IMG/VR virus record: IMGVR_UViG_3300032373_000004
Location: 6,109-70,108 of that record
Origin: a virus
Strand: one strand, 5' to 3'
DNA length: 64,000 bases
A program made the position numbers and the translations under genes. Below are positions 10,550-49,008 of this stretch, in pieces. Every line of letters begins with the position of its first letter. Position 1 is the stretch's first letter. The notes beneath the pieces were generated by a model, which searched no databases, had not been told where the DNA came from, and worked only from the letters and a program-made list of their open reading frames with translations.

Positions 10550-10556
10550 ATATTTG

Positions 10557-10630: not shown

Positions 10631-10635
10631 AAATA

Positions 10636-13026: not shown

Positions 13027-13035
13027 ATATTTTAG

Positions 13036-13153: not shown

Positions 13154-13172
13154 CATATAAAAGCTACTTATG

Positions 13173-13864: not shown

Positions 13865-13896
13865 AATATATTTTGTTTTAATTATTAATTCTGATG

Positions 13897-13904
13897 CAAA
13901 TATA
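13897..13904 (-). promoter_or_regulatory. putative -7 promoter box (TATATTTG)
   Basis: caaatata on + strand, 33 nt upstream of start codon at 13864. Confidence 0.4.
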
Positions 13905-13954
13905 AAACAGATATATTTAACCACCAAATTTTTCGATAAATATTTTTATCATTG

Positions 13955-14026
13955 ACTTTCTGGAAGGAGTCGAACCTTCGTCTAAAGCTTCGTAGGCAAT
14001 GGTTTTTCCAATTAAACTACAGAAAG
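13955..14026 (-). tRNA. tRNA-Arg (anticodon ACG)
   Basis: Acceptor ctttctg/cagaaag perfect, D-stem GUUU/AAAC, loop CUACGAA, T-arm gaagg-agtcgaa-ccttc. Confidence 0.6.
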
Positions 14027-14064
14027 ATTTTGTCACAAATATATGCTATAATTGTGACAATTTG

Positions 14065-14138
14065 TACCCCAGACAGGGCTCGAACCTGTAAAACTCAATG
14101 CTTAAAACTGATATGTATTCCAATTCCATCACTGGGGC
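14065..14138 (-). tRNA. tRNA with anticodon UAA (Leu-type anticodon, short variable arm)
   Basis: Acceptor accccag/ctggggc, anticodon stem UCAGU/AUUGA with loop UUUAAGC, perfect T-arm acagg-gctcgaa-cctgt. Confidence 0.5.
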
Positions 14139-14151
14139 ATAAACAACATTG

Positions 14152-14224
14152 TACTCCAAGTAGGATTCGAACCTACAAATTTCAGGGTCTAAACCTGTTG
14201 CCTATTCCATTCGGCTATTGGAGT
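14152..14224 (-). tRNA. tRNA with anticodon UAG (Leu-type anticodon, short variable arm)
   Basis: Acceptor actccaa/ttggagt perfect, anticodon stem ACAGG/CCUGA with loop UUUAGAC, perfect T-arm. Confidence 0.5.
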
Positions 14225-14229
14225 ATTAG

Positions 14230-14315
14230 GGTGAAAGATGGGATTCGAACCCACGAAATCTTTTCAGATGCCAGAATCACAATCTGGTGCATTTGACCAC
14301 TCTGCTACAATCACC
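14230..14315 (-). tRNA. tRNA-His (anticodon GUG) with encoded G-1:C73 and 16-nt variable region
   Basis: Anticodon stem CCAGA/UCUGG perfect with loop UUGUGAU; extra 5' G opposite discriminator C; acceptor has two U-U mismatches. Confidence 0.6.
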
Positions 14316-14322
14316 ATATTAG

Positions 14323-14395
14323 TAGGAATATCAAGACTCGAACTTGAAATATGGAATTCAAAGTTCCATGTGTTAACCAGTTACACTATACTCCA
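14323..14395 (-). tRNA. tRNA-Gln (anticodon UUG)
   Basis: D-stem GUGU/ACAC, anticodon stem UGGAA/UUCCA with loop CUUUGAA, perfect T-arm tcaag-actcgaa-cttga. Confidence 0.7.
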
Positions 14396-14435
14396 ATATA
14401 CTTGGACACTATGTCTAAGATAATGTCCAAGTTAG

Positions 14436-14515
14436 TACTCCCTGTGGGAATCGAACCCACTCTCCAAAAAGGCTAGGTTGAAAGCCTAGTCGCTCACCCA
14501 ATTGCATTAAGGAGC
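14436..14515 (-). tRNA. tRNA-Glu (anticodon UUC) with extended variable region
   Basis: Anticodon stem CUAGG/CCUAG perfect with loop CUUUCAA; acceptor actccct/aaggagc with G-U pairs; 12-nt variable region. Confidence 0.5.
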
Positions 14516-15118: not shown

Positions 15119-15466
15119 TTAATCTAATATTACCCAATCATTCTCTAAAACATCTGATGGAGATGCTACCCATCCATAAATAGTATTATCTGGATAAACC
15201 ATTGCTAATTGGTTTTTATAATCAATCGTACTATGATTATGTGCACCTCCTCCAGTACTAATATCAGTAATACTTAATCTTCTTAAAAATTCATCTTTTA
15301 CTGATTGTGGTAAAGATTGCATTTTTGGTACTGTTTCTGCAACATTAATTCTAGCAGGTACTTGCATAAAAATGAATAATTCTTTCCCATTCCAACCTAC
15401 TCTAGCAACTCTTTTACCTTGCTTTAAAGCGATTACCGCTTTTCCAAAACTTACTTGTTCGTTCAT
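15119..15466 (-). CDS. hypothetical protein (115 aa)
   Basis: ORF overlapping the next gene by 4 nt (operon-like packing). Confidence 0.5.
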   Translation of the reverse strand: MNEQVSFGKAVIALKQGKRVARVGWNGKELFIFMQVPARINVAETVPKMQSLPQSVKDEFLRRLSITDISTGGGAHNHSTIDYKNQLAMVYPDNTIYGWVASPSDVLENDWVILD

Positions 15467-25478: not shown

Positions 25479-26330
25479 TTATAATATCTCTTTTAAATTT
25501 TTAATTCTTTTAAATCCTACATTGTATCTTTGATTATGAGGAGCATCCATTAAGAAGCAGCAAATACCTGCATCATTTAATTGTTTAAAATTATGAAACG
25601 CATCATCTACAAAAATATCTATACCTTCTCTTTTAGCAATGTCTACTTTAGTATTACCTACACCTACTGTGTACACTGGTCTAGCAGGGAATCCGTGCAT
25701 ATCTAACCATTTTTCACTAATTTGACTGTCTACAGGTCTTGATGTAATGTAACAATGAGGTTCAAACGGTATGTCTTCTGGTTTAATTAAAGGTTTTAAA
25801 CCAAGATAAAAAATATCTAACTTACCTTCTTCTTTCATTGTATCAAATTTATTTAATATTTCTCTATCGAAATACCAACTAGCAGGTCTATCTCCTTCTG
25901 ACCAATCGCCTATCCAATCACATAATACCTCATCAATATCTAAAGCTATTTTAGGCTGTTTCAGGTAACTATGAGGTCTATCATCTCCTTGAGGATATAT
26001 TTTATAATAAGCTGTAAGGAAATGTGCATTACAAGCTATATGAGCTGCGTGTAACTCCCCTGTTTCTGGGTCGTAATCTTCACCACTCTCTACAGCATTT
26101 AAGTGACGTTTAAGTGATGCTATGACATTACTCCAAGCCATACCTCTTTCCCAATTACGGTCTTTGTATTTAATTGCTCCAGCAGTTAATACGTTAACCA
26201 TTTGTTCATGTGACCACGGATGAACCAAATCAAATCTGGCTTTTCCTTGGTTAAACCTCAGTCCTTTATGCTTAGATTGTTCTTGGTCTACTTTATCTAA
26301 AATTTCATCTCTAGTCTCTATTGTCTTCAT
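25479..26330 (-). CDS. fusion of a dATP/dGTP pyrophosphohydrolase-like N-domain with a 5'(3')-deoxyribonucleotidase (HAD/NT5C)
   Basis: HAD motif I IALDIDEVL (DxDxV) in C-half; N-half all-alpha with conserved W/H/E residues. Confidence 0.55.
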   Translation of the reverse strand: MKTIETRDEILDKVDQEQSKHKGLRFNQGKARFDLVHPWSHEQMVNVLTAGAIKYKDRNWERGMAWSNVIASLKRHLNAVESGEDYDPETGELHAAHIACNAHFLTAYYKIYPQGDDRPHSYLKQPKIALDIDEVLCDWIGDWSEGDRPASWYFDREILNKFDTMKEEGKLDIFYLGLKPLIKPEDIPFEPHCYITSRPVDSQISEKWLDMHGFPARPVYTVGVGNTKVDIAKREGIDIFVDDAFHNFKQLNDAGICCFLMDAPHNQRYNVGFKRIKNLKEIL

Positions 26331-30295: not shown

Positions 30296-31081
30296 TTAAA
30301 TTGTTCCTGATTGTTTATAAAACCCTGTTAATACATCCTCACCTCTAAGTACTTTACTAGCGTATGTTTTAGTTGAACGTGTAGTAGCTTCAAAAGATTC
30401 TTTTATTGAACTAGTATCATTTTTATGACTAAGGGTATTAGATTCATCTATTTTTAATACAGATATTACGTGTCTGACATCTTTTTCTGTTCCAACAAAT
30501 GTTACAGTAATATTATCCCTTTTACAGATATTTATTAATTTCTTAGCTTTTTCTAAGCTTCCCCAATTACTATCATTATCTCTACCATCTGTAAAAATCT
30601 TAACAATTACTTTTTCATTATCTTTTTTATTATCTAATAAATTAGATAATGTTTCAACTATAGCATCATATAATGCAGTATTACCATGATATACATTTAA
30701 TGGAAAACCAGCTTCTTTTATAGGTAATTTAGAATATTCTAAATTATACCTACCTTGTGAAGAAAATGTAATTAATGTTTGAATATAATTTACATTTGTT
30801 TCTTTTTGTAACTCAGCTATTTCTATCTCAATCCCTGATTTAGCAGCTTGAAATTTGGTTTGGTCACTGCCATTATACCATGTCATAGAAGCAGAAGAGT
30901 CTAAAATATGTACATTATGGACAGTAACATTACTTTCAACATTAGATATTTGATTAATTAAATGTTGACGATATTCGTCTGGTGTATCAAAACCAGCTCT
31001 GTTTGCAAGAACTAACCTACGATTTTTATTTGCTTTCTTAAAGTCGTAAAGTAATTCTTCTTTAGTTTTTAATTTTTTCAT
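30296..31081 (-). CDS. vWA domain protein (261 aa)
   Basis: MIDAS HILDSSASMTW (DxSxS), later T and D ligands. Confidence 0.55.
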   Translation of the reverse strand: MKKLKTKEELLYDFKKANKNRRLVLANRAGFDTPDEYRQHLINQISNVESNVTVHNVHILDSSASMTWYNGSDQTKFQAAKSGIEIEIAELQKETNVNYIQTLITFSSQGRYNLEYSKLPIKEAGFPLNVYHGNTALYDAIVETLSNLLDNKKDNEKVIVKIFTDGRDNDSNWGSLEKAKKLINICKRDNITVTFVGTEKDVRHVISVLKIDESNTLSHKNDTSSIKESFEATTRSTKTYASKVLRGEDVLTGFYKQSGTI

Positions 31082-31526
31082 TTAAATTGTATTTTAAATT
31101 ATATTGTTCAATTCTAGTTTTATACAAGAATAATAAATCTATATTCCTATAGATACTTTCTTGACAATTCTTTAATTTTTTCTGGTAAAAAGCTCTAGTA
31201 ATTTTAGGACGTAATTTAGACTTATATTCTTTTTTTTCAGAATAAAGCCTTTCTAATATTCTAGTATATATTCCAATTCTCTTTAAATTTCTTTTATTGA
31301 CAATCCAATCTATACCTTTTATAAAACCTAATTTTAAAATAGTTTTATATTCTTTATCTTTAACGTCATCATAAAAATCACTTCGTCGAACATCCTCTAA
31401 CTTAAATAAATTAGAGGATTTCGATAACTTAAAACCTTTGTAGATTATAAATTCATTTTCACCTGAGCCAAAGATTGTAACATTAGCCTTTTTAGCTTCA
31501 TTAAACCAATCTTGTAATATACTCAT
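31062..31526 (-). CDS. hypothetical protein (154 aa)
   Basis: ORF overlapping downstream vWA gene by 20 nt. Confidence 0.45.
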   Translation of the reverse strand: MSILQDWFNEAKKANVTIFGSGENEFIIYKGFKLSKSSNLFKLEDVRRSDFYDDVKDKEYKTILKLGFIKGIDWIVNKRNLKRIGIYTRILERLYSEKKEYKSKLRPKITRAFYQKKLKNCQESIYRNIDLLFLYKTRIEQYNLKYNLNEKIKN

Positions 31527-31591
31527 ATCTTTATCTTTGTTTATAATACAAATATATAAAGCGAATATTTAATAACCTAATTTTTTAGTAA

Positions 31592-32401
31592 TTAATTTAT
31601 ACCTTTTAAACCTTTTACAATAGCTGTTTCTGAACCGAACACATTATTATTACCATACATTGATATACCTGCTTTAGCGAATGATTCCATCACTTCTAAC
31701 TCACGTAATTTAAGTACTGCTGGTCTCGATAATAACTCTTTGGTTTTATAATCCCATTGAGCTTTTTCAAAATCTCCTTTACCTTGAGCTGCTTTTGCTT
31801 TAGCTAACGCTGTTTGTTCTGCTTCTTTTTTACTGGCTAACTCATTTTTACCTATTTGTACTGCTGTTTCTTCGGCTAATCTTGATATACCTTCTGGTAT
31901 GTTAATATCTGTAAACCTAACACGTTTAAATTCAACAAAAAATTCTGGTAACTCTTTTTTCAATATCTCAGCTAATTTATCTTCCCCTTCGGCTCTTTTA
32001 TTTTTATTTAAATCAACTGCTGAATATTGAGGAACTACCTCTTTAGCTGCTGATGATAGTGATGTTACAATCTTAACGTCTATGTCACTAATACCAACGT
32101 GTAATTTATTAACACTTGCTGGGTCTAAATTATAATCTAAAGCGACAGAAACAGTAGTAATCATATCATTCTTATCATTAAATGAGAATTCTTTAACTAC
32201 AGTATGTTCTCTAACATCGTATTCTACGACATCATCCCATAACCAATGGAATCCTCCATTCATACCTTCTGGTAAAATTGTTTTCATATTGGTTTCACCT
32301 CCCCAAGAAACTTCAACTCCTTTATGTCCAGAGCTTACTGTTGTACAGGACATTACAGTAAATAATAATCCTAATGTTAATAGTTTAAATAAATGTTTCA
32401 T
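31592..32401 (-). CDS. SPFH/band-7-like lipoprotein (putative)
   Basis: Lipoprotein signal MKHLFKLLTLGLLFTVMSC; Ala/Lys-rich coiled segment LAKAKAAQGKGDFEKAQ typical of HflK/C-type proteins. Confidence 0.4.
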   Translation of the reverse strand: MKHLFKLLTLGLLFTVMSCTTVSSGHKGVEVSWGGETNMKTILPEGMNGGFHWLWDDVVEYDVREHTVVKEFSFNDKNDMITTVSVALDYNLDPASVNKLHVGISDIDVKIVTSLSSAAKEVVPQYSAVDLNKNKRAEGEDKLAEILKKELPEFFVEFKRVRFTDINIPEGISRLAEETAVQIGKNELASKKEAEQTALAKAKAAQGKGDFEKAQWDYKTKELLSRPAVLKLRELEVMESFAKAGISMYGNNNVFGSETAIVKGLKGIN

Positions 32402-33321: not shown

Positions 33322-34833
33322 TTAATTGTTAATTTTATTAATTCTTTCTCTTATTTCAGTAAGAGTTGTTTGATTATGGAATGTTCCATTTTCAAATATT
33401 GTTTGCAAATAACCTAAATGTTCAATATTCCAAGGAATTTGGTCATATAGCTTATACTGTTCAGTATCTTTATCAAAATCAACTGATAATAAACCTTTAG
33501 CAGATTTTTTACTTCCATCAGATGTAATAGGGTCTTTAAAAATTTGTCTTCCAATAGATATAAAAGAACCTTCATTATCTCCTCCATCAATATTCTCTAA
33601 TATCTCAACATAGGTAGCTTTCATAGCGAACCCATGTGTATCTCTGGTAACATATTGATATGTAAAACTACCAATACCTAACACAATATTTGTAGAAGCA
33701 AAACCTTTATCTCTCAGTCTTCGTGTAATGTCTTTAGCTCTTTCAGGAGTTATAGAATCACCGTAAATTGCACCAATATGAGGGTCTAATACCTTATAAC
33801 CCTGTTCATTGATTGTTCCTCCAAATAAATCCCAAAGAACTTCAATGACTCCTTTACCAGAAGGTGATTCTGGAGATACAAATGAATCTACGTTATTTCC
33901 ACAAATAATATCGGCTGGGTCTCCAGAGTCAGGTCTTATTACTATCTTACCATCTCTGGCTAAAATTTCATCTTTAAGCACAGGTAAGTATTTAGTTAAT
34001 ACATCCCATAAATTCCAAGTATCGCTAACAATACTCAATATACCTGTAGGAAACTGCTTCATTAAATACCTAAATGTCTCAAGTTCACTATCATCACCTC
34101 CAGCACACATAACACTATGTTCAGTAGCGTTAACTGAACCTACTACAAATCCTTTCTCATCATAGTATTTACGAGCAGAAGCTATTGTAGGTAATGAATC
34201 ATCTCCTTTAAAAGATGTAGCATGACCTAATCCAGCATAAACTGTAGCATCAATACCTGCCATACCCCTCATCCCAAAATTATGTCCTTGGAAATCTACG
34301 AAGTCAATCGCTTGAGCATCTGTTTGAATACAAGCATCCGTTAAAATATCTTTATAATGATGAGCTGTAGTAGCTGCTGTCATAGGCATCCATAACATAT
34401 TAGAAATTAATGTTTCTAAAAAATTAGTTAACCAAAAGAAATCTGGGTCAGTATTATAAATAGTTAATACTGGTACACCATATGGTACAAATGTACCTTC
34501 TGGTAAAGCTTTAACTTTAATTGGTAAATGACCTAAATCATGTAACCTACCAATATGACTTACATCATAATCAGAATTTAAATATAATGAGTATTCATCT
34601 TTGATTTCAGTTAATACCTTAGTAAAATCTTTATTAAAAAATCCTTCATCAAACATTTCTTTAATTTGTCTCATTACCATTTGTTGACCAAACGATACTA
34701 CTCCTCTACCGCCTCTAACATTAGTATGTTTACCATGTCTAGGTGTAAAATTACTATACACAAGTGTTGTACCTTGTGGGTACATCATGTGATGACCTGT
34801 TTTATAACCATCGGTTATTAAGAATGGATTCAT
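33322..34833 (-). CDS. nadV: nicotinamide phosphoribosyltransferase family protein (NadV/NAMPT-like; possible Namat)
   Basis: Strong similarity to NadV throughout: DGYKTGHHMMYP, HDLGHLPIKVKALPEG, DFFWLTNFLETLIS. Confidence 0.9.
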   Translation of the reverse strand: MNPFLITDGYKTGHHMMYPQGTTLVYSNFTPRHGKHTNVRGGRGVVSFGQQMVMRQIKEMFDEGFFNKDFTKVLTEIKDEYSLYLNSDYDVSHIGRLHDLGHLPIKVKALPEGTFVPYGVPVLTIYNTDPDFFWLTNFLETLISNMLWMPMTAATTAHHYKDILTDACIQTDAQAIDFVDFQGHNFGMRGMAGIDATVYAGLGHATSFKGDDSLPTIASARKYYDEKGFVVGSVNATEHSVMCAGGDDSELETFRYLMKQFPTGILSIVSDTWNLWDVLTKYLPVLKDEILARDGKIVIRPDSGDPADIICGNNVDSFVSPESPSGKGVIEVLWDLFGGTINEQGYKVLDPHIGAIYGDSITPERAKDITRRLRDKGFASTNIVLGIGSFTYQYVTRDTHGFAMKATYVEILENIDGGDNEGSFISIGRQIFKDPITSDGSKKSAKGLLSVDFDKDTEQYKLYDQIPWNIEHLGYLQTIFENGTFHNQTTLTEIRERINKINN

Positions 34834-35240
34834 AAATTATAATTTTTAATTAATTCTTCTTCACTTTGAACCCAACAATCTTTATTATTAGGTTTCTCAT
34901 CACCGTTATAACAAATATAAGAAGGTTTATTAACTTGATAATTAACTACTCCATCTAAAGTTTGCAAACTTACTAATCTTGTATCAGTTATATATTCACC
35001 TATCCATATAGGTAATTTTTGATAACCTTTATCATCTGAAATCCATCCTACAGGAGAAGTTAGATTATCATTAGGTTGTACACCATGAGTAATAATACCT
35101 GCATCATCATGTTTAAGATATGCTCCATTTGGAAATTCCTGTACATTACCTTCTCCCCATTCTTCACTTTTATCAATAGTGACAGGACTAGGACAAAATG
35201 AGAAATTTACATTTCTTTGCTGACTTGTTATTTTTCTCAT
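34830..35240 (-). CDS. hypothetical protein (136 aa)
   Basis: ORF overlapping neighbours by 4 nt. Confidence 0.45.
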   Translation of the reverse strand: MRKITSQQRNVNFSFCPSPVTIDKSEEWGEGNVQEFPNGAYLKHDDAGIITHGVQPNDNLTSPVGWISDDKGYQKLPIWIGEYITDTRLVSLQTLDGVVNYQVNKPSYICYNGDEKPNNKDCWVQSEEELIKNYNL

Positions 35241-35602
35241 GATTTAATACCTTTAATGTATCTACTAGGGTTGTTACTAATTCTTCTTTCCCAAACCTCA
35301 GCTATACCTTTAAATACTCTATTCGTTAAATAATTAACTCCTATGATATCACTAGTTAAATTAGCTTTTGAATCTGCTCTACCTGATGAAATTTTCTCAG
35401 CTAATTCTTGATTAAAAGTATCTTCTTTCACTTTAACAGAATACCCTACTGATACATCTGATGCTGAATGAATAGGTTCTTTCTTAACAAAACTAAAACA
35501 TCCTGTTTCAATATCGTAATAATCTTTTGTTGTTTTTACACATAGTGTAATTTGTCTTTCACCTAATTCAAAAGTGTGAAAAACTGGTTTTTGCTTACTC
35601 AT
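35237..35602 (-). CDS. hypothetical protein (121 aa)
   Basis: ORF. Confidence 0.45.
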   Translation of the reverse strand: MSKQKPVFHTFELGERQITLCVKTTKDYYDIETGCFSFVKKEPIHSASDVSVGYSVKVKEDTFNQELAEKISSGRADSKANLTSDIIGVNYLTNRVFKGIAEVWERRISNNPSRYIKGIKS

Positions 35603-35621
35603 AATATATTGATTTTAATTA

Positions 35622-36410
35622 TTAATTTCTTCCTTTTTCTTCTGGATATAATTCTGTTAACAAATCTGATTGCCAAAACTGTTTAGTGTCTATATCCATA
35701 ATTGTTAATTTACCTTCAAAACCTCCTCCAGTATCTAAATTCCACACATTACTTCTATTCATAGGAACAATTATATTCCCCTGCTTAGGCTGTGTTTTAA
35801 TTTTATATTCTGGATAATGAGGTTTTATTTTCCAATTACCTGTTGAGGTATGACCAATGTAAATCTCTTTATGTTTCTCAAATCTTCTTGATTGAGGTGT
35901 TCCTCCTTCATGAATTCTACCATGAGATAGTAAAGCTAATTGCCATAAATCTCTATCCCAATAATAATCAGATTGATAATGTTCATGACCTAATCCTTTA
36001 CGTGAATGAAATCCACCATGTACAAATCCTCTATTATAATCATCTACATAGAAATTTAAAAGATTCTTAAAGAAAGTCCTATGTTCTTCAACAACTAATA
36101 ATCCTGAATTTACATAAGAATTAATTGTTGATTGACCTCCCTGTTGTGTCCACATTAAAGGTGCTTGACCGTATACTAACCAATCCTCACACCATTTATC
36201 ATGATTTCCTCGTAAGAATATAGGCGTGATAGTGGTATTATCCCTTATTTGGATAAGTTCTTCGATAACTTCTGCCGACTCTCCCCATCCGTCTACATAA
36301 TCTCCTAAAAAAATTAATTGGTCATTCGATGCGTTATATTCACATCTCTCTAAGATTTGTCTTAATGCCCTTAGTCCACCATGTATGTCACCTATTACTA
36401 ATGTTCTCAT
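35622..36410 (-). CDS. calcineurin-like metallophosphoesterase (PPP/ApaH-type)
   Basis: GDIHG, GDYVDGW, GNHD motifs. Confidence 0.75.
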   Translation of the reverse strand: MRTLVIGDIHGGLRALRQILERCEYNASNDQLIFLGDYVDGWGESAEVIEELIQIRDNTTITPIFLRGNHDKWCEDWLVYGQAPLMWTQQGGQSTINSYVNSGLLVVEEHRTFFKNLLNFYVDDYNRGFVHGGFHSRKGLGHEHYQSDYYWDRDLWQLALLSHGRIHEGGTPQSRRFEKHKEIYIGHTSTGNWKIKPHYPEYKIKTQPKQGNIIVPMNRSNVWNLDTGGGFEGKLTIMDIDTKQFWQSDLLTELYPEEKGRN

Positions 36411-36412
36411 AA

Positions 36413-37240
36413 TTAATAAAATAATTGTACAACTTCTAAATTAGTTGGATTATACATTGCTCCTCCTTCTGTGTCAGCCCAATATTCTTTAAATTTACTA
36501 TTAGTAGTAAATACTTTATCGAAATAATTAGTAATAGGGTCTATACCTAAATTCTGAACAGTCATATGACTAACCATTAAGTATAACTTACCACAGTTCC
36601 TTTCTCTCAATAATTTAGCTAACCCTTTAAATGTACCTCCATAAACACTTATATCGTCTACAATAAGTATATCTTTCCCTCCAAAATCTTCCCTATCTAC
36701 AATTTGTGATAGTGATGATTTTCCATTATCATACTGCCTAGCTTTAGATGCTGAATATGTTTCACCTCTCCACCCTATTTTATCAGATAACTTCATTAAA
36801 GGTTTGAATCCACCTGCATCAGAAGACATAAGTATCATGTCATTTACTGGAGATAATTTTCTTAAAACTTCATCTATAAGAATACTATTATCAATAATAT
36901 CTACACCTGTAAATAAAGACTCCACTACTTCTGGATTATGAGGATGGAATATACTCATTGAAATATTATATCCATCAACATATGTATCTAAAATTCTAGC
37001 TAATGTAAGTAAACCAGAAGATTGAAATTCATTAAATCTTTTGTCTGCTTGAGCATCAAGAAGACAAGGTATTGTTATATGTGCTTTAACTCTGTTATGA
37101 ATTAACACATCACAAAGTTGAGCTAAATGTATAACGCTTTTATAATCATTAATTCTAAAAGTAATCTCTTGAGTTGTGTTTTCCCATTCTTCTGGGATAG
37201 TAATATAACTCGTTCCGTCTGGATATTCATTTATCTTCAT
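36413..37240 (-). CDS. ribose-phosphate pyrophosphokinase (Prs)-like PRTase protein (possible ADP-ribose pyrophosphate synthetase, Adps-like)
   Basis: PRPP-binding loop ILIVDDISVYGGT; Prs-like segments PCLLDAQADKRF and MSSDAGGF; shorter (275 aa) than cellular Prs. Confidence 0.6.
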   Translation of the reverse strand: MKINEYPDGTSYITIPEEWENTTQEITFRINDYKSVIHLAQLCDVLIHNRVKAHITIPCLLDAQADKRFNEFQSSGLLTLARILDTYVDGYNISMSIFHPHNPEVVESLFTGVDIIDNSILIDEVLRKLSPVNDMILMSSDAGGFKPLMKLSDKIGWRGETYSASKARQYDNGKSSLSQIVDREDFGGKDILIVDDISVYGGTFKGLAKLLRERNCGKLYLMVSHMTVQNLGIDPITNYFDKVFTTNSKFKEYWADTEGGAMYNPTNLEVVQLFY

Positions 37241-37422
37241 ATACCTGCTCTTAGTTTAAACAATCTATGTAATCCTAATATTTGATAATACCCTTTAGTA
37301 CTACCTTGTACTCTTACAACTGATTTAATATTTAATGCTCTACGTTTCTTCTGTAGATTTTTTCTGGATTCACTCCAGAAATTTCTTTGACTTCTTTCTG
37401 TTTGATACATATATGTTTTCAA
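37237..37422 (-). CDS. hypothetical small protein (likely starts at internal ATG 37410)
   Basis: ORF; TATATTTG-type box 24 nt upstream of 37410. Confidence 0.3.
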   Translation of the reverse strand: MKTYMYQTERSQRNFWSESRKNLQKKRRALNIKSVVRVQGSTKGYYQILGLHRLFKLRAGI

Positions 37423-37433: not shown

Positions 37434-37441
37434 CAAATATA
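37434..37441 (-). promoter_or_regulatory. putative -7 promoter box
   Basis: caaatata on + strand (rc TATATTTG) upstream of 37237-37410 gene. Confidence 0.35.
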
Positions 37442-37474
37442 TATAATAATTTTTATATTCGCAAGTTTTTTTCG

Positions 37475-37700: not shown

Positions 37701-38981
37701 TTATTTACCTCCTATTTTTACCCACATATCTTCAATACGTTGTTCAAATTCTTCTTCTGTTTCATCATGTTTAATTTCAGGCATACCTACTCTCGAACCG
37801 AAAGTGTAAGAATATTCTAACATACATTTTACTGACGGTATCATTCTTTTACCTCCATCAACATAAGTATGTCCATCTAATATACAATCTTGTAAAATCT
37901 TAGGAGTTACAGGAATTACTTCATTAGGAAACATTCTTATCGTACCTTTATCTGTTTGAAATTCAACTGTTGGTATACCATTAAACTTATCATCAATTTT
38001 TAAAGTACACGTACCTATTTCAGCTACACTTGTAGTAACAGTTGTATTAGGATTTTTAACAATCATAAACAAAGCTGTTTCATCATATTCAAAAGCTCTA
38101 ACTAATCTTTCAACTTTTTCATAAGTCGCTTCTTGAACATAATCTGTAAGATGACCCATACCCATATATGTACCTATATTATCTTTCATGTCAGATATCA
38201 TCTGATGTACTTGTCTCCAACTTTTAAGATTTACAAACTTTATATCTTCTGGAGTTAGATTACCTCCTTTACCTAGTCTATAATATACATATCTATCATC
38301 ATCTTCATCATAATAAAGATGATACATTTTAGCAATATCTTCATGCGTTATAGATTCATCAAATATAGCTTTTCTTTTATTCTCTTGAGAGACATCTGTT
38401 AAATCCATTGATAATAAAGAAAATGATAGTGATTCAAATTGTTTTTGATTATCAAGGTAAACTAAATTAGTATCTAAACCTTTAGATTTAGGAACAGATA
38501 ATAATTTTTTATATCTATATTCTAATTCATTATCTTCAACCATGTTTTCAATAATACCTAACACAGTTATACCTTTCTCCTCAAAGAAAGGAACAGTTCT
38601 TTCCACATCTGCTTTAGATAATTCACTTGGTTGACTAACTAATATTGCAGCACTTATTTTCAATTTCTTAATTAAAGCTAAATGAATATCTGTAATACTT
38701 GGTGGTGTATCAATTAATAATATATCTGGATTAACATCCTTAATTTTAGTAACTGACTCTCTCAAAAATAAATTAATCGTCGCTTTATCAAGGAACAACC
38801 CTGTATAATCATGATTAGATATTAAATCTTCACTAATTAAATGGTGCATTGAAGGAGTATTTAAGTCCATATCTAACACCATAACCTTCTTACCTGATTC
38901 TTTAAAAGCTCTATATAAACAATAAGTTGTAGTAGATTTACCTACTCCACCTTTACCTGAATAAGTTAAAAATGATTTCAT
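37701..38981 (-). CDS. ParA/MinD/Mrp-family P-loop ATPase with about 250-aa C-terminal extension
   Basis: Deviant Walker A SGKGGVGKSTT at residues 8-18, VLDMDLNTPS; C-terminal half without recognisable motif. Confidence 0.65.
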   Translation of the reverse strand: MKSFLTYSGKGGVGKSTTTYCLYRAFKESGKKVMVLDMDLNTPSMHHLISEDLISNHDYTGLFLDKATINLFLRESVTKIKDVNPDILLIDTPPSITDIHLALIKKLKISAAILVSQPSELSKADVERTVPFFEEKGITVLGIIENMVEDNELEYRYKKLLSVPKSKGLDTNLVYLDNQKQFESLSFSLLSMDLTDVSQENKRKAIFDESITHEDIAKMYHLYYDEDDDRYVYYRLGKGGNLTPEDIKFVNLKSWRQVHQMISDMKDNIGTYMGMGHLTDYVQEATYEKVERLVRAFEYDETALFMIVKNPNTTVTTSVAEIGTCTLKIDDKFNGIPTVEFQTDKGTIRMFPNEVIPVTPKILQDCILDGHTYVDGGKRMIPSVKCMLEYSYTFGSRVGMPEIKHDETEEEFEQRIEDMWVKIGGK

Positions 38982-39187
38982 ATCTCAAAATGTTTATTTA
39001 ATTGTTTAATTACATAATACTGTAAGTTTGCTAACCTACCTATACCCACAACATTGAATATCCAATGGGAAAATACTTCCCTGAATTGCTCAAATGATAG
39101 TGATATTTTACCTCCCATAATAGTATAATAAAAGAAATATACTTCCATCATATCTGTACTAGGGTCTTGAAACTGTTCTTTTGTCAT
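38978..39187 (-). CDS. hypothetical small protein
   Basis: 69-aa ORF overlapping neighbours by 4 nt. Confidence 0.3.
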   Translation of the reverse strand: MTKEQFQDPSTDMMEVYFFYYTIMGGKISLSFEQFREVFSHWIFNVVGIGRLANLQYYVIKQLNKHFEI

Positions 39188-39621
39188 AATTTCCTTTCAT
39201 AATATTTCAAATACACATAAGACTTATGATACTTTTTAATTCTCTCAAAATCTTTATCTCTAAGTCCTTTTAATCTAGTAATATCAGAATTATCTTCTAA
39301 GTCTGCTAACTTAACCAATATAGCATTAGTATTCATTGAAATACTGTGAATATATTGTTCATAATTCATTTCATTTGGGTCATGAGTTAATAATCTTAAA
39401 GCTGTTACAACTCTATCTGAAAAACCACTTTTAATAAGGTCTTCAAATTCCCATTTAGTATCTTCAACAAGGTCGTGCATAACTGCTATACATCTTAATT
39501 CTTCATCATTTTTAGGCATTTTATCCATGACTCTCAAACAATGTAAAATGTACGGATTACCACCTTTGTCTTTTTTACCTTCGAAGGCTTGTGCTACAAT
39601 TGATATTGCTCTACTTAACAT
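39184..39621 (-). CDS. HD-domain SpoT/MESH1-like small alarmone hydrolase
   Basis: HCLRV (His), IAVMHDLVEDT matching the SpoT hydrolase motif AAxLHDxxEDT; 145 aa. Confidence 0.7.
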   Translation of the reverse strand: MLSRAISIVAQAFEGKKDKGGNPYILHCLRVMDKMPKNDEELRCIAVMHDLVEDTKWEFEDLIKSGFSDRVVTALRLLTHDPNEMNYEQYIHSISMNTNAILVKLADLEDNSDITRLKGLRDKDFERIKKYHKSYVYLKYYERKL

Positions 39622-45780: not shown

Positions 45781-46488
45781 ATGATTAAGAAACAATATAT
45801 AGGTTATTATAGAGTTTCCACTAAAAGACAAGGTGACTCTGGATTGAGTTTAGAGTCTCAAAAACAAGATGTACAAAGATTTGTACCAAATGACGGTACA
45901 TTGATTAATGAATATACGGAAGTTGAATCGGGTAGAAAAAACAACAGGAAACAATTATCTAAAGCATTACAGGAATGTAGAGATACAGGTGCAACTTTGG
46001 TAATAGCTAAATTAGATAGATTATCACGTAATGCTCCTTTTACAATAATGTTAAGGGATTCTAGTGTAGATTTTTTATGTGCAGATATGCCAGAAGCTAA
46101 TAGTTTAACAATAGGTATATTAGCATTAATAGCTCAAGATGAAGCTGATAAAATATCTAGGAGAGTTAAGGATGCTTTATCTGTTATTAAAGGTAAAATT
46201 GAAAGAGGTGAAGAGCATATATCTAAATCAGGTAATGTTATAACTAAATTAGGTGCTTGGAGTACTATGTCAGATTTTGCTAGGGAAAGAGGGTTACAAA
46301 TAAGAAAGGAAAACGCTAAGAATAATCCAGAAAGTAAAAAAGCTGGAGCATTTATAGTGACTGCTAAGAATGCAGGTAATAATTTTAGTCAAATTACTAA
46401 AATGTTAAATAATTCTGGGTTTAGTACCCCTAGAGGGGGTAAATTTTCTCAGGTGCAAACAAAGAGATTATATGAGCGTTATAAATAA
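45781..46488 (+). CDS. small serine recombinase (resolvase/invertase family)
   Basis: Catalytic domain YYRVSTKRQGDSGLSLESQ (nucleophile Ser) and LVIAKLDRLSRN; 235 aa, no large-serine-integrase C-terminal domain. Confidence 0.75.
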   Translation: MIKKQYIGYYRVSTKRQGDSGLSLESQKQDVQRFVPNDGTLINEYTEVESGRKNNRKQLSKALQECRDTGATLVIAKLDRLSRNAPFTIMLRDSSVDFLCADMPEANSLTIGILALIAQDEADKISRRVKDALSVIKGKIERGEEHISKSGNVITKLGAWSTMSDFARERGLQIRKENAKNNPESKKAGAFIVTAKNAGNNFSQITKMLNNSGFSTPRGGKFSQVQTKRLYERYK

Positions 46489-48299: not shown

Positions 48300-48382
48300 G
48301 GGGATGGAAAGCTATTCGGATATAGCAGCAGGTCTGTAAAACCTGTCCTTAATTGGGAGTGGTTCGAGTCCACCCAGCCCCA
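48300..48382 (+). tRNA. tRNA-Tyr (anticodon GUA), long variable arm
   Basis: Anticodon stem caggt/acctg perfect with loop CUGUAAA; acceptor ggggatg/cagcccc; T-loop TTCGAGT; 12-nt variable region. Confidence 0.55.
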
Positions 48383-48470
48383 CGAGGCTGATAACTTACA
48401 GAAAGAAAGAAACAGGAAAAAGAGTTAGTGATTTTTGGTGGTTATGCACTTGATTATGAAACCATCGCAG

Positions 48471-48562
48471 GGAAGAGTTATCCGAAAGATTCTGGGTAGC
48501 GGAGACGGTCTTGAAAACCGTTTGTTGTAAAAGATGTGAGGGTTCGAATCCCTTCTCTTCCT
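48471..48562 (+). tRNA. tRNA-Ser (anticodon UGA), type II
   Basis: Acceptor ggaagag/ctcttcc perfect; anticodon stem acggt/accgt with loop CUUGAAA; 16-nt variable arm; T-arm gaggg-ttcgaat-ccctt. Confidence 0.7.
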
Positions 48563-48656
48563 CAAATAGAAAGTAAACCAGTAAGGTACTGGACTCCCCT
48601 GCTAAGGGATGTGAGGGTAAAACCTTGAGAATCGTGTTCTCTTCTTTCTGCTAAAA

Positions 48657-48728
48657 TCTTCTCTCGTATAAAGGTTATTACGTGTGACTGTTAATCACTT
48701 TATCAAGGTTCGAGTCCTTGGGGAAGAG
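48657..48728 (+). tRNA. tRNA-Asn (anticodon GUU)
   Basis: Acceptor tcttctc/gggaaga, loop CUGUUAA, perfect T-arm caagg-ttcgagt-ccttg. Confidence 0.65.
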
Positions 48729-48735
48729 CTAAAAT

Positions 48736-48808
48736 ACACATAGTGTCGTCTGGGAGCGACAGCAGTCTCCAAAACTGTGAGCTTAGGGTTCGAATCCTTA
48801 TATGTGTG
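48736..48808 (+). tRNA. tRNA-Trp (anticodon CCA)
   Basis: Acceptor acacata/tatgtgt perfect, D-stem gtcg/cgac, anticodon stem gcagt/actgt with loop CUCCAAA. Confidence 0.75.
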
Positions 48809-48822
48809 CTAATATATTAATT

Positions 48823-48895
48823 GGGGAAGAAGCTAACTCGGTAGAAGCGTTAGTCTGAAAAACTAAAGGAATGTGTTCGACTCACATCTTTCCCA
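48823..48895 (+). tRNA. tRNA-Phe (anticodon GAA)
   Basis: Acceptor ggggaag/ctttccc, anticodon stem ttagt/actaa with loop CUGAAAA, perfect T-arm atgtg-ttcgact-cacat. Confidence 0.75.
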
Positions 48896-48900
48896 CAATA

Positions 48901-48971
48901 CACCATAATCCTGATGGTGAAGGGTTGCCTCTGCAAAAGGTAAAGTGTCAGTTCGATTCTGACTGTGGTGT
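48901..48971 (+). tRNA. tRNA-Cys (anticodon GCA)
   Basis: Acceptor caccata/tgtggtg, loop CUGCAAA, perfect T-arm gtcag-ttcgatt-ctgac. Confidence 0.7.
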
Positions 48972-49008
48972 CAATTATTTTTATTATCTTTGTGTAAAAT
49001 ATAATAAA

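What the first reader, a model, noticed from the sequence alone, without database searches (positions are those of the whole stretch)
33322..37240. Candidate phage NAD+ reconstitution/salvage module (NAMPT-like plus PRPP-synthetase-like, no NMNAT seen)
33322-34833 encodes an unmistakable NadV/NAMPT-family enzyme. 1.6 kb away, in the same orientation, 36413-37240 encodes a shortened Prs-like PRTase (275 aa) that keeps the PRPP loop. No NMN adenylyltransferase motif (GxFxPxHxGH) is visible in the intervening ORFs, which argues against a plain NadV-NMNAT (NARP2-type) salvage route. A shortened Prs-like partner for a NAMPT-like enzyme matches the reported NARP1 arrangement (Adps: ADPR to ADPR-PP; Namat: ADPR-PP plus nicotinamide to NAD+), which phages use to rebuild NAD+ depleted by Thoeris/DSR/SIR2-type defences. 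The intervening metallophosphoesterase (35622-36410) and two unknown ORFs could be accessory.
Basis: partly seen in the sequence, partly recalled or inferred. Interest (0 to 1): 0.7.

Follow-up and report, generated by a model that had tools for sequence, protein, structure and literature searches.

The report
Phage NAD+ rebuilding operon (NARP1), extended
A crAss-like phage carries the known two-enzyme NARP1 pathway, which rebuilds NAD+ after bacterial defences destroy it, but here the two enzymes are split by three conserved extra genes that may be undescribed helpers.

Summary

- **Namat, 33322-34833(-).** This is a Namat, not a NadV/Nampt. It scores 464 bits to the SPbetaL1 Namat crystal structures and about 213 bits to true NAMPTs. 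It carries the Namat-specific adenine clamp, GSFTYQYVTRD.
- **Adps, 36413-37240(-).** It scores 148 bits on an Adps HMM and 56 bits on a Prs HMM. The essential lysine is conserved, and the Prs ribose-5-phosphate loop is missing.
- **No NMNAT.** None exists anywhere in the reconstructed 76.4 kb genome, so NARP2 is rejected.

The core system is therefore already known; this is a new member, in a crAss-like phage that also encodes a Tad2-like anti-Thoeris protein.

The architecture is less ordinary. One tightly packed operon reads o57, Adps, lambda-phosphatase-like metallophosphoesterase (MPE), o121, o136, Namat.

- **MPE.** It recurs beside NARP1 in 13 of 80 viral loci, in several gene orders.
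- **o136.** This orphan all-beta protein sits just upstream of Namat in a second, unrelated phage lineage, and beside an Acb2/Tad1 sponge in a third.

Both also occur without NARP1, so an accessory role remains an inference. One candidate role is dephosphorylating ADPR-1''-phosphate or ADPR-cyclic-phosphate, as the Macro-domain Adpp of NARP1-AP does.

The parts
37434..37464 (-). Candidate Bacteroidota-type promoter (TTG, 20 nt, TATATTTG) upstream of the operon
   Evidence: The motif TTG-N17-21-TAnnTTTG occurs 19 times in the window against 8.5 +/- 2.4 in shuffles, and 9 hits are intergenic. This copy lies 24 nt upstream of the o57 ATG. The next minus-strand copy downstream is at 27489. The consensus itself comes from my own knowledge. 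That this site is used is an inference.
37237..37410 (-). o57: small basic protein (57 aa, ATG at 37410), first gene of the operon; function unknown
   Evidence: It is conserved at about 75% identity in the same position in sister phages L110 and L112. Its stop overlaps the Adps start (ATGA).
36413..37240 (-). Adps (ADP-ribose pyrophosphokinase; Prs-like, 275 aa)
   Evidence: It hits PF00156. TIGR01251 scores 61.9 bits against a cut-off of 113; validated Adps score 96-106 and E. coli Prs scores 423. It scores 148.2 bits on the Adps HMM and 56.0 bits on the Prs HMM. K166 aligns with the essential K162 of SPbetaL1 Adps. The PH[S/N] motif and PRPP loop are kept, while the Prs QGFF loop and the N-terminal ~30 aa are absent.
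35622..36410 (-). Lambda-phosphatase/ApaH-like binuclear metallophosphoesterase (MPE, 262 aa); candidate NARP1 accessory
   Evidence: It hits PF00149 and phrog_246. All metal-ligand motifs are invariant in the family: GDIHG, GDxxDG, GNHD, HGG, GHT. The best solved relative by profile is lambda phosphatase 1G5B, E 3e-16. It lies beside NARP1 genes in 13 of 80 viral loci, in several gene orders.
35237..35602 (-). o121: conserved 121-aa protein of unknown function that always follows the MPE in this phage lineage
   Evidence: It has 10 homologues at 56-73% identity. It follows the MPE directly in L110, L111, L112 and L113, including L111, which lacks NARP1. It has no Pfam, PHROG or PDB match. The AF2 model is unusable at pLDDT 55.
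34830..35240 (-). o136: orphan all-beta protein (136 aa), immediately upstream of Namat and overlapping it; candidate NAD-related counter-defence partner
33322..34833 (-). Namat (nicotinamide ADP-ribose transferase; NAMPT-like, 503 aa)
   Evidence: It scores 464 bits to 9W5X/9W5W (SPbetaL1 Namat) and about 213 bits to NAMPTs. The clamp helix reads GSFTYQYVTRD. The NAD-contact residues of 9W5W are conserved. It is 48-50% identical to validated Namats and 30-32% identical to NARP2-type Nampts.

Best explanation
The locus is a single, tightly packed six-gene operon of a ~76.4 kb crAss-like phage, probably with a Bacteroidota host. Its two outer enzymes form NAD+ reconstitution pathway 1 (NARP1).

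Mechanism, inferred from the characterised homologues:
1. A host NADase defence (Thoeris ThsA, DSR, SIR2-HerA, SEFIR and similar) splits NAD+ into ADP-ribose and nicotinamide.
2. Adps uses ATP to pyrophosphorylate the free ribose of ADP-ribose, giving ADPR-PP.
3. Namat recognises the adenine of ADPR-PP with its selectivity clamp, replaces the pyrophosphate with nicotinamide and releases NAD+. Phage replication can then continue.

Shown here by sequence:
- both proteins belong to the Adps and Namat families;
- catalytic and clamp residues are intact;
- the gene arrangement is one of co-transcription and translational coupling;
- no NMNAT exists in the genome.

Inferred: the enzymatic activities and the anti-defence phenotype.

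The three embedded genes are co-expressed with the pathway. My best guess, at about 0.3-0.35, is that the lambda-phosphatase-like MPE widens the input of the pathway. It would convert phosphorylated ADP-ribose species into ADP-ribose, acting as a non-homologous counterpart of the Macro-domain Adpp of NARP1-AP. Candidate substrates are ADPR-1''-phosphate made by aRES-type defences, and the ADPR-cyclic-phosphate that forms spontaneously from ADPR-PP. I also guess that o136 is a further NAD- or ADPR-signal-directed counter-defence protein. The stated confidence refers to the NARP1 core.
For: **Namat**
- Best PDB matches are 9W5X/9W5W at 464 bits; all NAMPTs score about 213 bits. These entries are the SPbetaL1 Namat structures (PMC12774641).
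- The Namat-only motif GS-X-Phi-X-Phi-X-Phi-TRD is present as GSFTYQYVTRD. NARP2-type phage Nampts read GGYLLQGMTRD, GAGLLQHVNRD or GGALLQATNRD, and mammalian NAMPT reads GSGGALLQKLTRD.
- Catalytic residues F186, D212, R300 and the ATEH histidine are conserved.

**Adps**
- HMM competition gives 148 versus 56 bits, with correct leave-one-out behaviour of controls.
- It falls below all curated Prs models, as do SPbetaL1, FADO and ICP1 Adps.
- K166 aligns with the essential K162.

**Genome and operon**
- There is no NMNAT, NadR, PnuC or Nudix in the whole genome.
- Gene junctions are ATGA overlaps or spacers of 2-19 nt. No terminator lies inside the operon, and one upstream Bacteroidota-type promoter motif is present.
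- A Tad2-like anti-Thoeris gene lies at 15119-15466.

**Accessory hypothesis**
- MPE lies beside NARP1 in 13 of 80 loci, in the orders A-M-N, M-A-N and A-N-M. Positional null P = 9e-5, or 1.6e-3 after dereplication.
- The lambda-phosphatase clade hydrolyses ribose cyclic phosphates and monoesters (PMC2190708).
- NARP1-AP is a precedent for a phosphatase inside NARP1 operons. aRES is present in 4.7% of Bacteroidota genomes.
- o136 lies next to Namat in a second lineage, although the Namats are only 39-44% identical while the o136 copies are 55-58% identical. It also lies next to an Acb2/Tad1 gene in L116.
Against: **Core**
- No biochemistry was done. Namat enzymes keep some PRPP-dependent NMN-forming activity in vitro (PMC12774641).
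- The window Adps is a divergent member: only 40-52 bits pairwise to validated Adps, and 47 bits to an archaeal class III Prs.
- It reads QADK where other Adps read R.DR.
- In Namat, S190 is replaced by G187. The clamp-loop residue is K35-H36, so adenine stacking would fall to a His.
- Adps and Namat are not adjacent, as they are in the classic two-gene operon.

**Accessories**
- 67 of 80 MPE loci have no NARP1 gene within 10 kb.
- NARP1-linked MPEs are interleaved with unlinked ones in 3 of 16 subclades.
- Other frequent MPE neighbours are nucleotide-metabolism genes: dNMP-kinase-like, RNR, ThyX and MazG-like.
- Sister phage L111 keeps MPE-o121 but has neither Adps nor Namat.
- 5-6 of 11 o136 contexts lack NARP1.
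- The slot between o121 and Namat holds Endonuclease VII or a small membrane protein in sister phages. It may simply be an insertion hotspot.
Confidence: 0.85

Rival explanations
1. Plain NARP1 with unrelated passengers. Adps and Namat work as a standard two-enzyme pathway. The three genes between them have nothing to do with NAD+. The MPE would be a generic lambda-type protein phosphatase, an RNA-end-healing enzyme or a nucleotide-metabolism enzyme. The gene o121 would be its partner, and o136 would be an unrelated moron. They would sit there because this genome region tolerates insertions.
For: - Most MPE homologues (67 of 80 loci) have no NARP1 nearby, and linked and unlinked MPEs are interleaved.
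- MPE neighbours are often RNR, dNMP-kinase-like, ThyX and MazG-like genes.
- The MPE homologue in Cellulophaga phage phi38:1 lies near an RtcB ligase and has no NARP1.
- L111 keeps MPE-o121 without NARP1.
- The same inter-gene slots hold homing or Holliday-junction endonucleases in relatives: LAGLIDADG in L003 and Endonuclease VII in L110 and L112.
Against: - MPE stays within 3 genes of Adps in 11 of 13 loci despite three different gene orders. P = 9e-5, or 1.6e-3 after dereplication.
- Tight three-gene units with overlapping or abutting ORFs exist in L065, L071, L050 and L079.
- o136 is found directly upstream of Namat in a lineage whose Namat is only about 40% identical to the window's.
- There are precedents of ADPR-processing accessories inside NARP1 operons: Macro Adpp and RyDEP.
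Confidence: 0.5
2. PRPP/NMN salvage, as in NARP2 or classical NadV. The Prs-like enzyme makes PRPP. The NAMPT-like enzyme makes NMN from nicotinamide. A host NMN adenylyltransferase finishes NAD+.
For: Database names for both proteins say so: nicotinate/nicotinamide phosphoribosyltransferase and ribose-phosphate pyrophosphokinase. Namat retains about half of human NAMPT's NMN-forming activity with PRPP in vitro (PMC12774641).
Against: - The clamp motif that enforces ADPR-PP use is fully present, and it is absent from all three NARP2-type phage Nampts compared.
- The Prs-like protein fails every curated Prs model. It lacks the QGFF ribose-5-phosphate loop and the N-terminal segment, and it scores 92 bits better on Adps than on Prs.
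- 94% of NARP2 phages encode an NMNAT, and this genome has none.
- SPbetaL1 Adps makes no PRPP.
Confidence: 0.06
3. The MPE, with or without o121, is itself an independent counter-defence enzyme. It would destroy a nucleotide-based signal or alarmone such as Ap4A, a cyclic or linear oligonucleotide, or a phosphorylated ADPR signal. Alternatively it would attack host nucleic acid. It would then only share an anti-defence island with NARP1.
For: - Its nearest characterised relatives include ApaH/ALPH Ap4A hydrolases.
- A mycobacteriophage metallophosphoesterase was reported to subvert host immunity by damaging host DNA (PMC12287305).
- The MPE family persists without NARP1.
- The phage carries other counter-defence genes: a Tad2-like protein and a SpoT-like HD hydrolase.
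Against: No signal-degrading activity is known for this clade. The recurring immediate adjacency to Adps is not explained. The Gp48 family was not shown to be related beyond the superfamily level.
Confidence: 0.15

Closest known systems
NARP1 of Bacillus phage SPbetaL1, E. coli phage Bas63 and Bacillus phage FADO (Osterman et al., bioRxiv 10.1101/2024.02.11.579819; Namat structures 9W5X/9W5W, PMC12774641)
   Same: It has the same two enzyme families. Namat is 48-50% identical, with an identical clamp helix apart from one Phi position, and the catalytic core is conserved. Adps is the same size (272-280 aa versus 275 aa) with the same essential Lys, PRPP loop and sub-threshold Prs scores. The pathway is phage-borne, and no NMNAT is present.
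   Different: The two genes are not adjacent. They are separated by 1.58 kb that holds three conserved genes and are preceded by a small basic ORF. Adps is a divergent branch, 24-26% identical to validated Adps. The host range is new: a crAss-like phage, presumably of a Bacteroidota host.
NARP1-AP of Vibrio phage Gary (Adps, Macro-domain Adpp, Namat; bioRxiv 10.64898/2026.01.28.702374)
   Same: A phosphatase-type gene lies between Adps and Namat in one operon. Some relatives (L065) even have the exact three-gene order Adps, phosphoesterase, Namat.
   Different: The enzyme here is a binuclear metallophosphoesterase of the lambda-phosphatase/ApaH clade, not a Macro domain. ADPR-1''-phosphate phosphatase activity is untested. 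The paper's neighbour table lists only Macro proteins.
RyDEP plus NARP1 of mycobacteriophage DyoEdafos (bioRxiv 10.64898/2026.05.28.727677)
   Same: The concept is the same: a small accessory protein next to NARP1 converts an ADPR-derived molecule into ADP-ribose and feeds the pathway.
   Different: Neither o121 nor o136 matches the RyR domain in Pfam. o136 is an all-beta fold with no solved relative.
NARP2 / NadV-NatV of Vibrio phage KVP40 and relatives
   Same: It also uses a NAMPT-superfamily enzyme for NAD+ replenishment by a phage.
   Different: NARP2 Nampts lack the clamp motif, and an NMNAT(-Nudix) accompanies them. Both features were tested here and not met.
Bacteriophage lambda Ser/Thr phosphatase (1G5B), NinI family, ApaH-like phosphatases
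   Same: This is the best solved relative of the MPE (E 3e-16, near full length). The metal-binding motifs are the same. The clade is known to hydrolyse phosphomonoesters, diesters and ribose 2',3'-cyclic phosphates (PMC2190708).
   Different: The motif II arginine (GDxVDRG) is replaced by Gly-Trp/His (GDYVDGW). The family has a conserved C-terminal SDxxxxLYPxxxGR tail. It also shows a recurrent genomic link to Adps and Namat.

Membership tests
Namat (NARP1 second enzyme) | NAMPT-like catalytic core: nicotinamide- and ribose-phosphate-binding residues F189, D215, R306 and D308 and the catalytic His (SPbetaL1 numbering) | tested here: met
   F186, D212, R300, D302 and the ATEH histidine are conserved. 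S190 is replaced by G187.
Namat (NARP1 second enzyme) | [quoted passage not shown] | tested here: met
   The window reads GSFTYQYVTRD (F390, Y394). SPbetaL1 reads GSFTYQYNTRD and ICP1 reads GSYTYQYVTRD. NARP2 Nampts and mammalian NAMPT lack the aromatics.
Namat (NARP1 second enzyme) | Selectivity-clamp loop (beta1-beta2) that is longer than in Nampt, with Arg/Lys/Tyr at the third position and a stacking residue | tested here: inconclusive
   The loop is longer than in the three NARP2 Nampts. K35 aligns with R40 of SPbetaL1, and K is also found in FADO and ICP1. The next residue is His36, where FADO, ICP1 and L003 have Tyr. Stacking by His was not assessed structurally.
Namat (NARP1 second enzyme) | Closer to validated Namats than to Nampts | tested here: met
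   464 versus about 213 bits in the PDB search. 48-50% versus 30-32% identity.
Namat (NARP1 second enzyme) | Prefers ADPR-PP over PRPP and forms NAD+ directly | not testable with these tools
   This needs an enzyme assay.
Adps (NARP1 first enzyme) | Prs-like fold with PRPP loop and the essential catalytic Lys (K162 in SPbetaL1) | tested here: met
   PF00156 is hit. The PRPP loop reads DDISVYGGT. K166 aligns with K162. The PHN histidine is kept.
Adps (NARP1 first enzyme) | Belongs to the phage Adps clade and not to cellular Prs | tested here: met
   The Adps HMM, built without the window protein or L003, gives 148.2 bits. An HMM of the 3 validated Adps gives 76.5 bits, and the Prs HMM gives 56.0 bits. 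Leave-one-out controls sort correctly. The protein is below all curated Prs cut-offs, as the validated Adps are. Caveats: only 3 Prs references were used, two of them fragments, and the bootstrapped tree did not finish.
Adps (NARP1 first enzyme) | A Namat gene in the immediate vicinity (97% of the Adps clade) | tested here: met
   Namat lies 1.58 kb downstream in the same tightly packed operon. It is not directly adjacent.
Adps (NARP1 first enzyme) | Pyrophosphorylates ADP-ribose and not ribose-5-phosphate | not testable with these tools
   This needs an enzyme assay. Loss of the Prs QGFF ribose-5-phosphate loop is consistent with it.
NARP2 (Nampt plus NMNAT) | Phage-encoded NMN adenylyltransferase, often fused to Nudix | tested here: not met
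   There is no HxGH or Nudix motif. tblastn and phmmer with three phage NMNAT/NadR proteins find nothing better than E 0.3 in the window or in the remaining 12.4 kb of the genome.
NARP2 (Nampt plus NMNAT) | Nampt-type enzyme without an adenine clamp | tested here: not met
   The clamp is present.
NARP1-AP (NARP1 with associated phosphatase) | Macro-domain ADPR-1''-phosphate phosphatase (Adpp; PF14519, PF01661 or PF20016) within two genes of NARP1 | tested here: not met
   No operon protein hits a Macro family at E <= 0.01. The embedded phosphoesterase is PF00149, so at most it is a functional analogue.
Lambda-phosphatase/PPP-like metallophosphoesterase | Five binuclear-metal motifs: DxH, GDxxD, GNH[DE], H and GH | tested here: met
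   GDIHG, GDYVDG, GNHD, HGG and GHT are invariant in 9 family members. 1G5B matches at E 3e-16.
Lambda-phosphatase/PPP-like metallophosphoesterase | Motif II arginine (GDxVDRG), which contacts the substrate phosphate | tested here: not met
   The family has Gly-Trp, Gly-His or Gly-Gly at this position. This suggests a different substrate pocket.
RyDEP (RyR-domain cADPR glycosidase) | RyR-repeat domain | tested here: not met
   Pfam gives no hit for o121 or o136. The o136 model is all-beta with no structural relative. The o121 model is too poor to judge.

The most novel reading that the evidence does not exclude
The operon is an undescribed extended form of NARP1. In it, a lambda-phosphatase-type metallophosphoesterase, with its constant partner o121, replaces the Macro-domain Adpp. 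It would convert phosphorylated ADP-ribose species into ADP-ribose for Adps and Namat. Candidate substrates are the aRES product ADPR-1''-phosphate, the dead-end by-product ADPR-cyclic-phosphate, and 2'-phospho-ADPR from NADP+. The orphan all-beta protein o136 would be a new family of NAD- or ADPR-signal-directed counter-defence proteins that travels with Namat or with Tad1/Acb2-type sponges.
Probability: 0.3. Interest if true: 0.65.

Novelty: new member of a known kind. Interest (0 to 1): 0.42.

Why it matters
The core result is confirmatory. It places NARP1, with all its published sequence hallmarks, in a crAss-like phage that also carries a Tad2-like anti-Thoeris gene. This suggests that NAD+-depleting defences are a real pressure on phages of Bacteroidota.

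The analysis also yields concrete, cheap-to-test leads. The first is a metallophosphoesterase family that recurs inside or beside NARP1 operons in at least three gene orders. The second is a small orphan protein family, o136, that tracks Namat across unrelated phage backbones.

If either feeds or protects the pathway, it would extend the recently opened theme of NARP1 accessories (Macro Adpp, RyDEP). It would also predict which non-canonical NAD+ breakdown products bacterial defences make in Bacteroidota.

Tried and rejected
- **Nucleotide search.** Megablast of the locus against 50,697 phage records found nothing.
- **Weak discriminators for Adps versus Prs.** phrog_619 does not separate them, because E. 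coli Prs scores 193 bits. Pairwise phmmer scores are also too weak: 40-52 bits to validated Adps, 22 to E. coli Prs and 47 to an archaeal Prs. Competing HMMs replaced both tests.
- **Tree.** A bootstrapped NJ tree timed out and was not repeated.
- **Transcription signals.** The sigma-70 promoter scan gave 32 hits against 31.5 expected, and the terminator scan was also at chance level.
- **o121.** The only PDB hit was CinA/PncC at E 0.89, which is chance level and was not pursued. The AF2 model has pLDDT 55, so no fold search was run. The longer ~200-aa homologues gave only a borderline KOW hit.
- **Wider locus searches.** IMG/VR holds no relatives of o121 or o136. The metagenome scan for o136 gave 4 loci, all without NARP1, three of them too short to be informative.
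- **Literature.** The mycobacteriophage Gp48 metallophosphoesterase paper describes a nuclease-type role and no NARP1 link. One 2026 preprint that mentions NARP1 and calcineurin-like phosphoesterases could not be opened.
- **Block transfer of o136 with Namat.** Rejected. Namat is 72-80% identical to sister phages but 39-44% identical to the lineage that shares o136.

Full report
**Observation**

ORF 33322-34833 (503 aa) matches the NAMPT/NadV family: NF006629 at E 1e-151, phrog_448 at E 3e-179, and PF04095 plus NAMPT_N. ORF 36413-37240 (275 aa) matches PF00156 and TIGR01251 (ribose-phosphate diphosphokinase) at E 4.5e-17, below the curated cut-off.

Three genes lie between them:
- a metallophosphoesterase at 35622-36410 (PF00149; phrog_246, NinI-like);
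- a 121-aa ORF, o121, at 35237-35602;
- a 136-aa ORF, o136, at 34830-35240.

**Genome context**

The window is phage DNA. It encodes a large terminase, DNA polymerase, RNR, GroEL, primase-helicase and a tail fibre. It also holds 20 tRNA genes. It has no close nucleotide relative among GenBank phages.

Fetching the contig around proteins at the window's two edges showed that the sequence closes on itself. The whole genome is about 76.4 kb. The unseen 12.4 kb is structural and includes crAss_MUZ muzzle proteins.

Several observations point to a crAss-like phage of a Bacteroidota host. This host assignment is an inference.
- GC content is about 30%.
- The best annotated Namat relatives are in Kolpuevirus, DAC15 and crAss-like phages.
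- The Bacteroidota promoter motif TTG-N17-21-TAnnTTTG occurs 19 times against 8.5 +/- 2.4 expected. The consensus comes from my own knowledge.

**Is the NAMPT-like protein a Namat or a Nampt?**

The 2026 structural paper on SPbetaL1 Namat (PMC12774641) defines what separates the two. [quoted passage not shown] The clamp helix carries the Namat-only motif GS-X-Phi1-X-Phi2-X-Phi3-TRD, with aromatic X.

- The window protein's best PDB matches are 9W5X and 9W5W (464 bits). These are the SPbetaL1 Namat structures. Every true NAMPT scores about 213 bits.
- I aligned it with three NARP1 Namats (SPbetaL1, FADO, ICP1) and three NARP2-type phage Nampts, each of which sits next to an NMNAT.
- The window protein reads GSFTYQYVTRD. 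SPbetaL1 reads GSFTYQYNTRD and ICP1 reads GSYTYQYVTRD. The NARP2 enzymes read GGYLLQGMTRD, GAGLLQHVNRD and GGALLQATNRD, and mammalian NAMPT reads GSGGALLQKLTRD.
- Nearly all NAD+-contact residues of 9W5W are conserved. The exceptions are S190 to G187 and R40 to K35; Lys at the R40 position is also seen in FADO and ICP1.
- Identity is 48-50% to Namats and 30-32% to NARP2 Nampts.

I conclude it is a Namat.

**Is the Prs-like protein an Adps?**

No Adps structure exists in the PDB; the best hits are archaeal class III Prs at 47 bits. Adps is a very divergent family, so pairwise scores are weak. The window scores 40-52 bits to validated Adps and 22 bits to E. coli Prs. phrog_619 does not discriminate, because E. 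coli Prs scores 193 bits. Three better tests agree.

1. **Curated Prs models.** TIGR01251 has a cut-off of 113 bits. It gives 61.9 for the window, 96-106 for the three reference Adps and 423 for E. coli Prs.
2. **Competing HMMs.** A model of 19 Adps, built without the window protein or its close relative L003, scores the window at 148.2 bits. A model of only the three reference Adps gives 76.5 bits, and a Prs model gives 56.0 bits. In leave-one-out runs every Adps prefers the Adps model and every Prs prefers the Prs model.
3. **Residues.** K166 aligns with K162 of SPbetaL1 Adps, whose K162A mutant is inactive. The PH[S/N] histidine and the PRPP loop are kept. The Prs QGFF ribose-5-phosphate loop and the N-terminal ~30 residues are absent, as in all Adps.

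Caveats: only three Prs references were used, two of them fragments. The window and L003 read QADK/QADR where other Adps read R.DR.

**NARP2 is rejected**

No ORF in the window has an NMNAT HxGH motif or a Nudix box. NMNAT-Nudix, NadR and PnuC proteins from NARP2 phages find nothing better than E 0.3, either in the window or in the remaining 12.4 kb. The original NARP paper reports that 94% of NARP2 phages encode an NMNAT and that no phage has both pathways.

**Operon anatomy**

A conserved 57-aa basic ORF, o57 (37410-37237), overlaps the Adps start. It is about 75% identical in sister phages L110 and L112. The junctions are:

| Junction | Spacing |
|---|---|
| o57 / Adps | ATGA overlap |
| Adps - MPE | 2 nt |
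| MPE - o121 | 19 nt |
| o121 / o136 | ATGA overlap |
| o136 / Namat | ATGA overlap |

No minus-strand terminator-like site lies inside the operon. One Bacteroidota-type promoter motif lies at 37464-37434, and the next one on that strand is at 27489. Co-transcription from o57 to Namat is therefore likely, though it is an inference.

**The metallophosphoesterase (MPE)**

The family keeps all binuclear-metal motifs (GDIHG, GDxxDG, GNHD, HGG, GHT). It lacks the motif II arginine and has a conserved C-terminal SDxxxxLYPxxxGR tail. By profile, the closest solved relative is lambda phosphatase 1G5B (E 3e-16, near full length). ApaH/ALPH Ap4A hydrolases, RLPH2 and 4J6O follow. This clade is documented to hydrolyse ribose 2',3'-cyclic phosphates as well as mono- and diesters (PMC2190708).

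Evidence for a link with NARP1:
- In 80 IMG/VR loci carrying a family member, 13 have Adps and/or Namat within 10 kb.
- Several orders occur. Adps-MPE-Namat is tight in L065. MPE-Adps-Namat occurs in L024 and L071. Adps-Namat-MPE occurs in L050 and L079. MPE-Adps occurs in L043.
- Split versions like the window occur in L003, L019, L020, L084 and L097.
- Given co-occurrence in a locus, Adps lies within three genes of the MPE in 11 of 13 cases. The positional null gives P = 9e-5, or 1.6e-3 for 8 dereplicated architectures.

Evidence against a dedicated role:
- 67 of 80 loci have no NARP1 gene.
- Linked MPEs are interleaved with unlinked ones in 3 of 16 subclades.
- Other common neighbours are nucleotide-metabolism genes.
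- The closest GenBank homologues, in Cellulophaga and Leptolyngbya phages, have no NARP1 nearby.
- L111 is a sister phage with a Band_7 protein 90% identical to the window's. It keeps MPE-o121 in place but has neither Adps nor Namat.

The literature I could search describes a Macro-domain phosphatase (Adpp; NARP1-AP) and RyDEP as NARP1 accessories. It describes no metallophosphoesterase.

**o121**

It has ten homologues at 56-73% identity, three of them with an N-terminal extension. In every context recovered (L110-L113) it follows the MPE directly. All of these are the window's own lineage, so this may be inherited synteny. It has no family or structure match, and the AF2 model is unusable.

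**o136**

Its genomic contexts are the interesting part.
- In L114, L115, L117 and L118 it lies zero to three genes upstream of Namat. These loci have a different backbone, a Namat-Adps-RNR order and no MPE.
- The window's Namat is 72-80% identical to its sister phages but only 39-44% identical to that lineage. The o136 copies are 55-58% identical. So o136 did not arrive with Namat as a block.
- In L116 the gene directly upstream has an Acb2/Tad1 hairpin domain (37.6 bits against a cut-off of 27).
- The other contexts (L119, L122 and three short contigs) show no NARP1.
- In sister phages the o136 slot holds Endonuclease VII or a small membrane protein.

**How it most likely works**

Shown by sequence: a complete NARP1 enzyme pair with intact catalytic and specificity residues, packed in one operon, in a genome without an NMNAT.

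Inferred from the characterised homologues: Adps plus ATP converts ADP-ribose to ADPR-PP. Namat then joins nicotinamide to it and releases NAD+. This counters NAD+-depleting defences. A Tad2-like gene at 15119-15466 (PF11195, 63.8 bits) shows that the phage also targets Thoeris signalling.

For the embedded genes, I estimate about 0.3-0.35 that the MPE supplies ADP-ribose from phosphorylated forms. One candidate is ADPR-1''-phosphate from aRES, which is reported in 4.7% of Bacteroidota genomes. Another is the ADPR-cyclic-phosphate by-product noted. I give a similar estimate that o136 is a NAD- or ADPR-signal-related counter-defence protein. The passenger reading is at least as likely.

**Novelty**

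The core is a new member of a known system. NARP1 is reported in 859 phage genomes, about 4.3%. The split six-gene architecture and the two recurrently linked families are not described in the papers I could access. Their functional involvement is untested, so I do not rate the locus as a new variant. That possibility is carried in the novel case.

Noticed in passing
window 15119-15466 (-): A 115-aa protein with a clear Tad2-like Thoeris anti-defence domain (PF11195, E 2e-17, 63.8 bits against a cut-off of 25). It is a second NAD/TIR-directed counter-defence gene in the same phage.
   Followed up: partly
window 13172-13246 (-), within tRNA arrays at 8325-14515 (-) and 48300-48972 (+): There are 20 tRNA genes. 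One has anticodon UCA (called tRNA-SeC by ARAGORN), which makes it an opal-suppressor-like tRNA. crAss-like phages are known, from my own knowledge, to recode stop codons late in infection. Three operon genes (o57, o121, o136) end in TGA within ATGA overlaps.
   Followed up: no
window 39184-39621 (-): A 145-aa HD-domain protein resembles the hydrolase domain of SpoT/RelA (TIGR00691, 41.9 bits; phrog_990, 171 bits). It may be a small alarmone hydrolase, and it lies 2 kb upstream of the operon.
   Followed up: no
window 37701-38981 (-): A 426-aa Mrp/ParA-type P-loop ATPase (PF10609, E 1e-29) has a ~250-aa C-terminal region without any family match. It is conserved just upstream of the operon in sister phage L112.
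   Followed up: no
window 25479-26330 (-): A 283-aa protein combines a MazZ-like dATP/dGTP diphosphohydrolase N-domain (PF18909, 102 bits) with an NT5C-type nucleotidase region. This hints at nucleotide-pool editing. No PurZ was looked for.
   Followed up: no
window 30296-32401 (-): An SPFH/Band_7 protein (31592-32401) and a vWA protein (30296-31081) lie downstream of the operon. The same order is conserved in all sister phages (L110-L113).
   Followed up: no
window 2344-8241 (+): This is a giant 1,965-aa protein. Its C-terminal ~880 aa match phrog_14770 and phrog_616, with a weaker DarB-like antirestriction hit (phrog_10089). The source annotation gives PF18857 (LPD38).
   Followed up: no
L111 (Logan SRR12153467 contig, 257-1637): This sister phage has a Band_7 protein 90% identical to the window's. 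It keeps MPE-o121 in the same place but has neither Adps nor Namat. It is a natural NARP1-minus comparator.
   Followed up: partly
L003 6405-7001 and L019 9902-10498: A second, smaller metallophosphoesterase (198 aa, DTHFFH...GNHE) sits immediately upstream of Namat in these split NARP1 loci. The family occurs in 19 of the 80 MPE loci (cluster 5).
   Followed up: no
L114 6710-7636 and 10204-10752: In a 149-kb phage contig, a P-loop kinase fused to a HAD/NT5C phosphatase lies between o136 and Namat. A nucleoside 2-deoxyribosyltransferase-like gene follows Adps. This is another phosphatase type beside NARP1.
   Followed up: no
L116 5469-5885: A protein with an Acb2/Tad1 hairpin domain (PF24729, 37.6 bits against a cut-off of 27) lies directly upstream of an o136 homologue, in a 93-kb contig without NARP1 nearby.
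   Followed up: partly
L107 (Ochrobactrum phage vB_OspM_OC) 2759-3472: A distant MPE homologue, annotated as a Ser/Thr phosphatase, lies four genes from the NMNAT-Nudix gene of a NARP2-type cluster. That cluster also holds NadV, PnuC and NadR.
   Followed up: no
PDB 9KE8/9KEO: A third solved 'nicotinamide phosphoribosyltransferase' scores 406 bits to the window Namat. Its clamp is a variant (GAQTYQRNTRD), with Gln and Arg where Namats have aromatics. I could not establish its identity or specificity.
   Followed up: no
L003 4565-5176; L110 6409-6885; L112 6394-6753: Mobile-type endonuclease genes are inserted between NARP1 genes in relatives: LAGLIDADG in L003 and Endonuclease VII in L110 and L112. 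The intergenic slots of this operon appear to be insertion-prone.
   Followed up: no
window 45781-46488 (+): A serine recombinase/resolvase (PF00239, 82 bits) lies at the switch between the minus-strand and plus-strand gene blocks.
   Followed up: no
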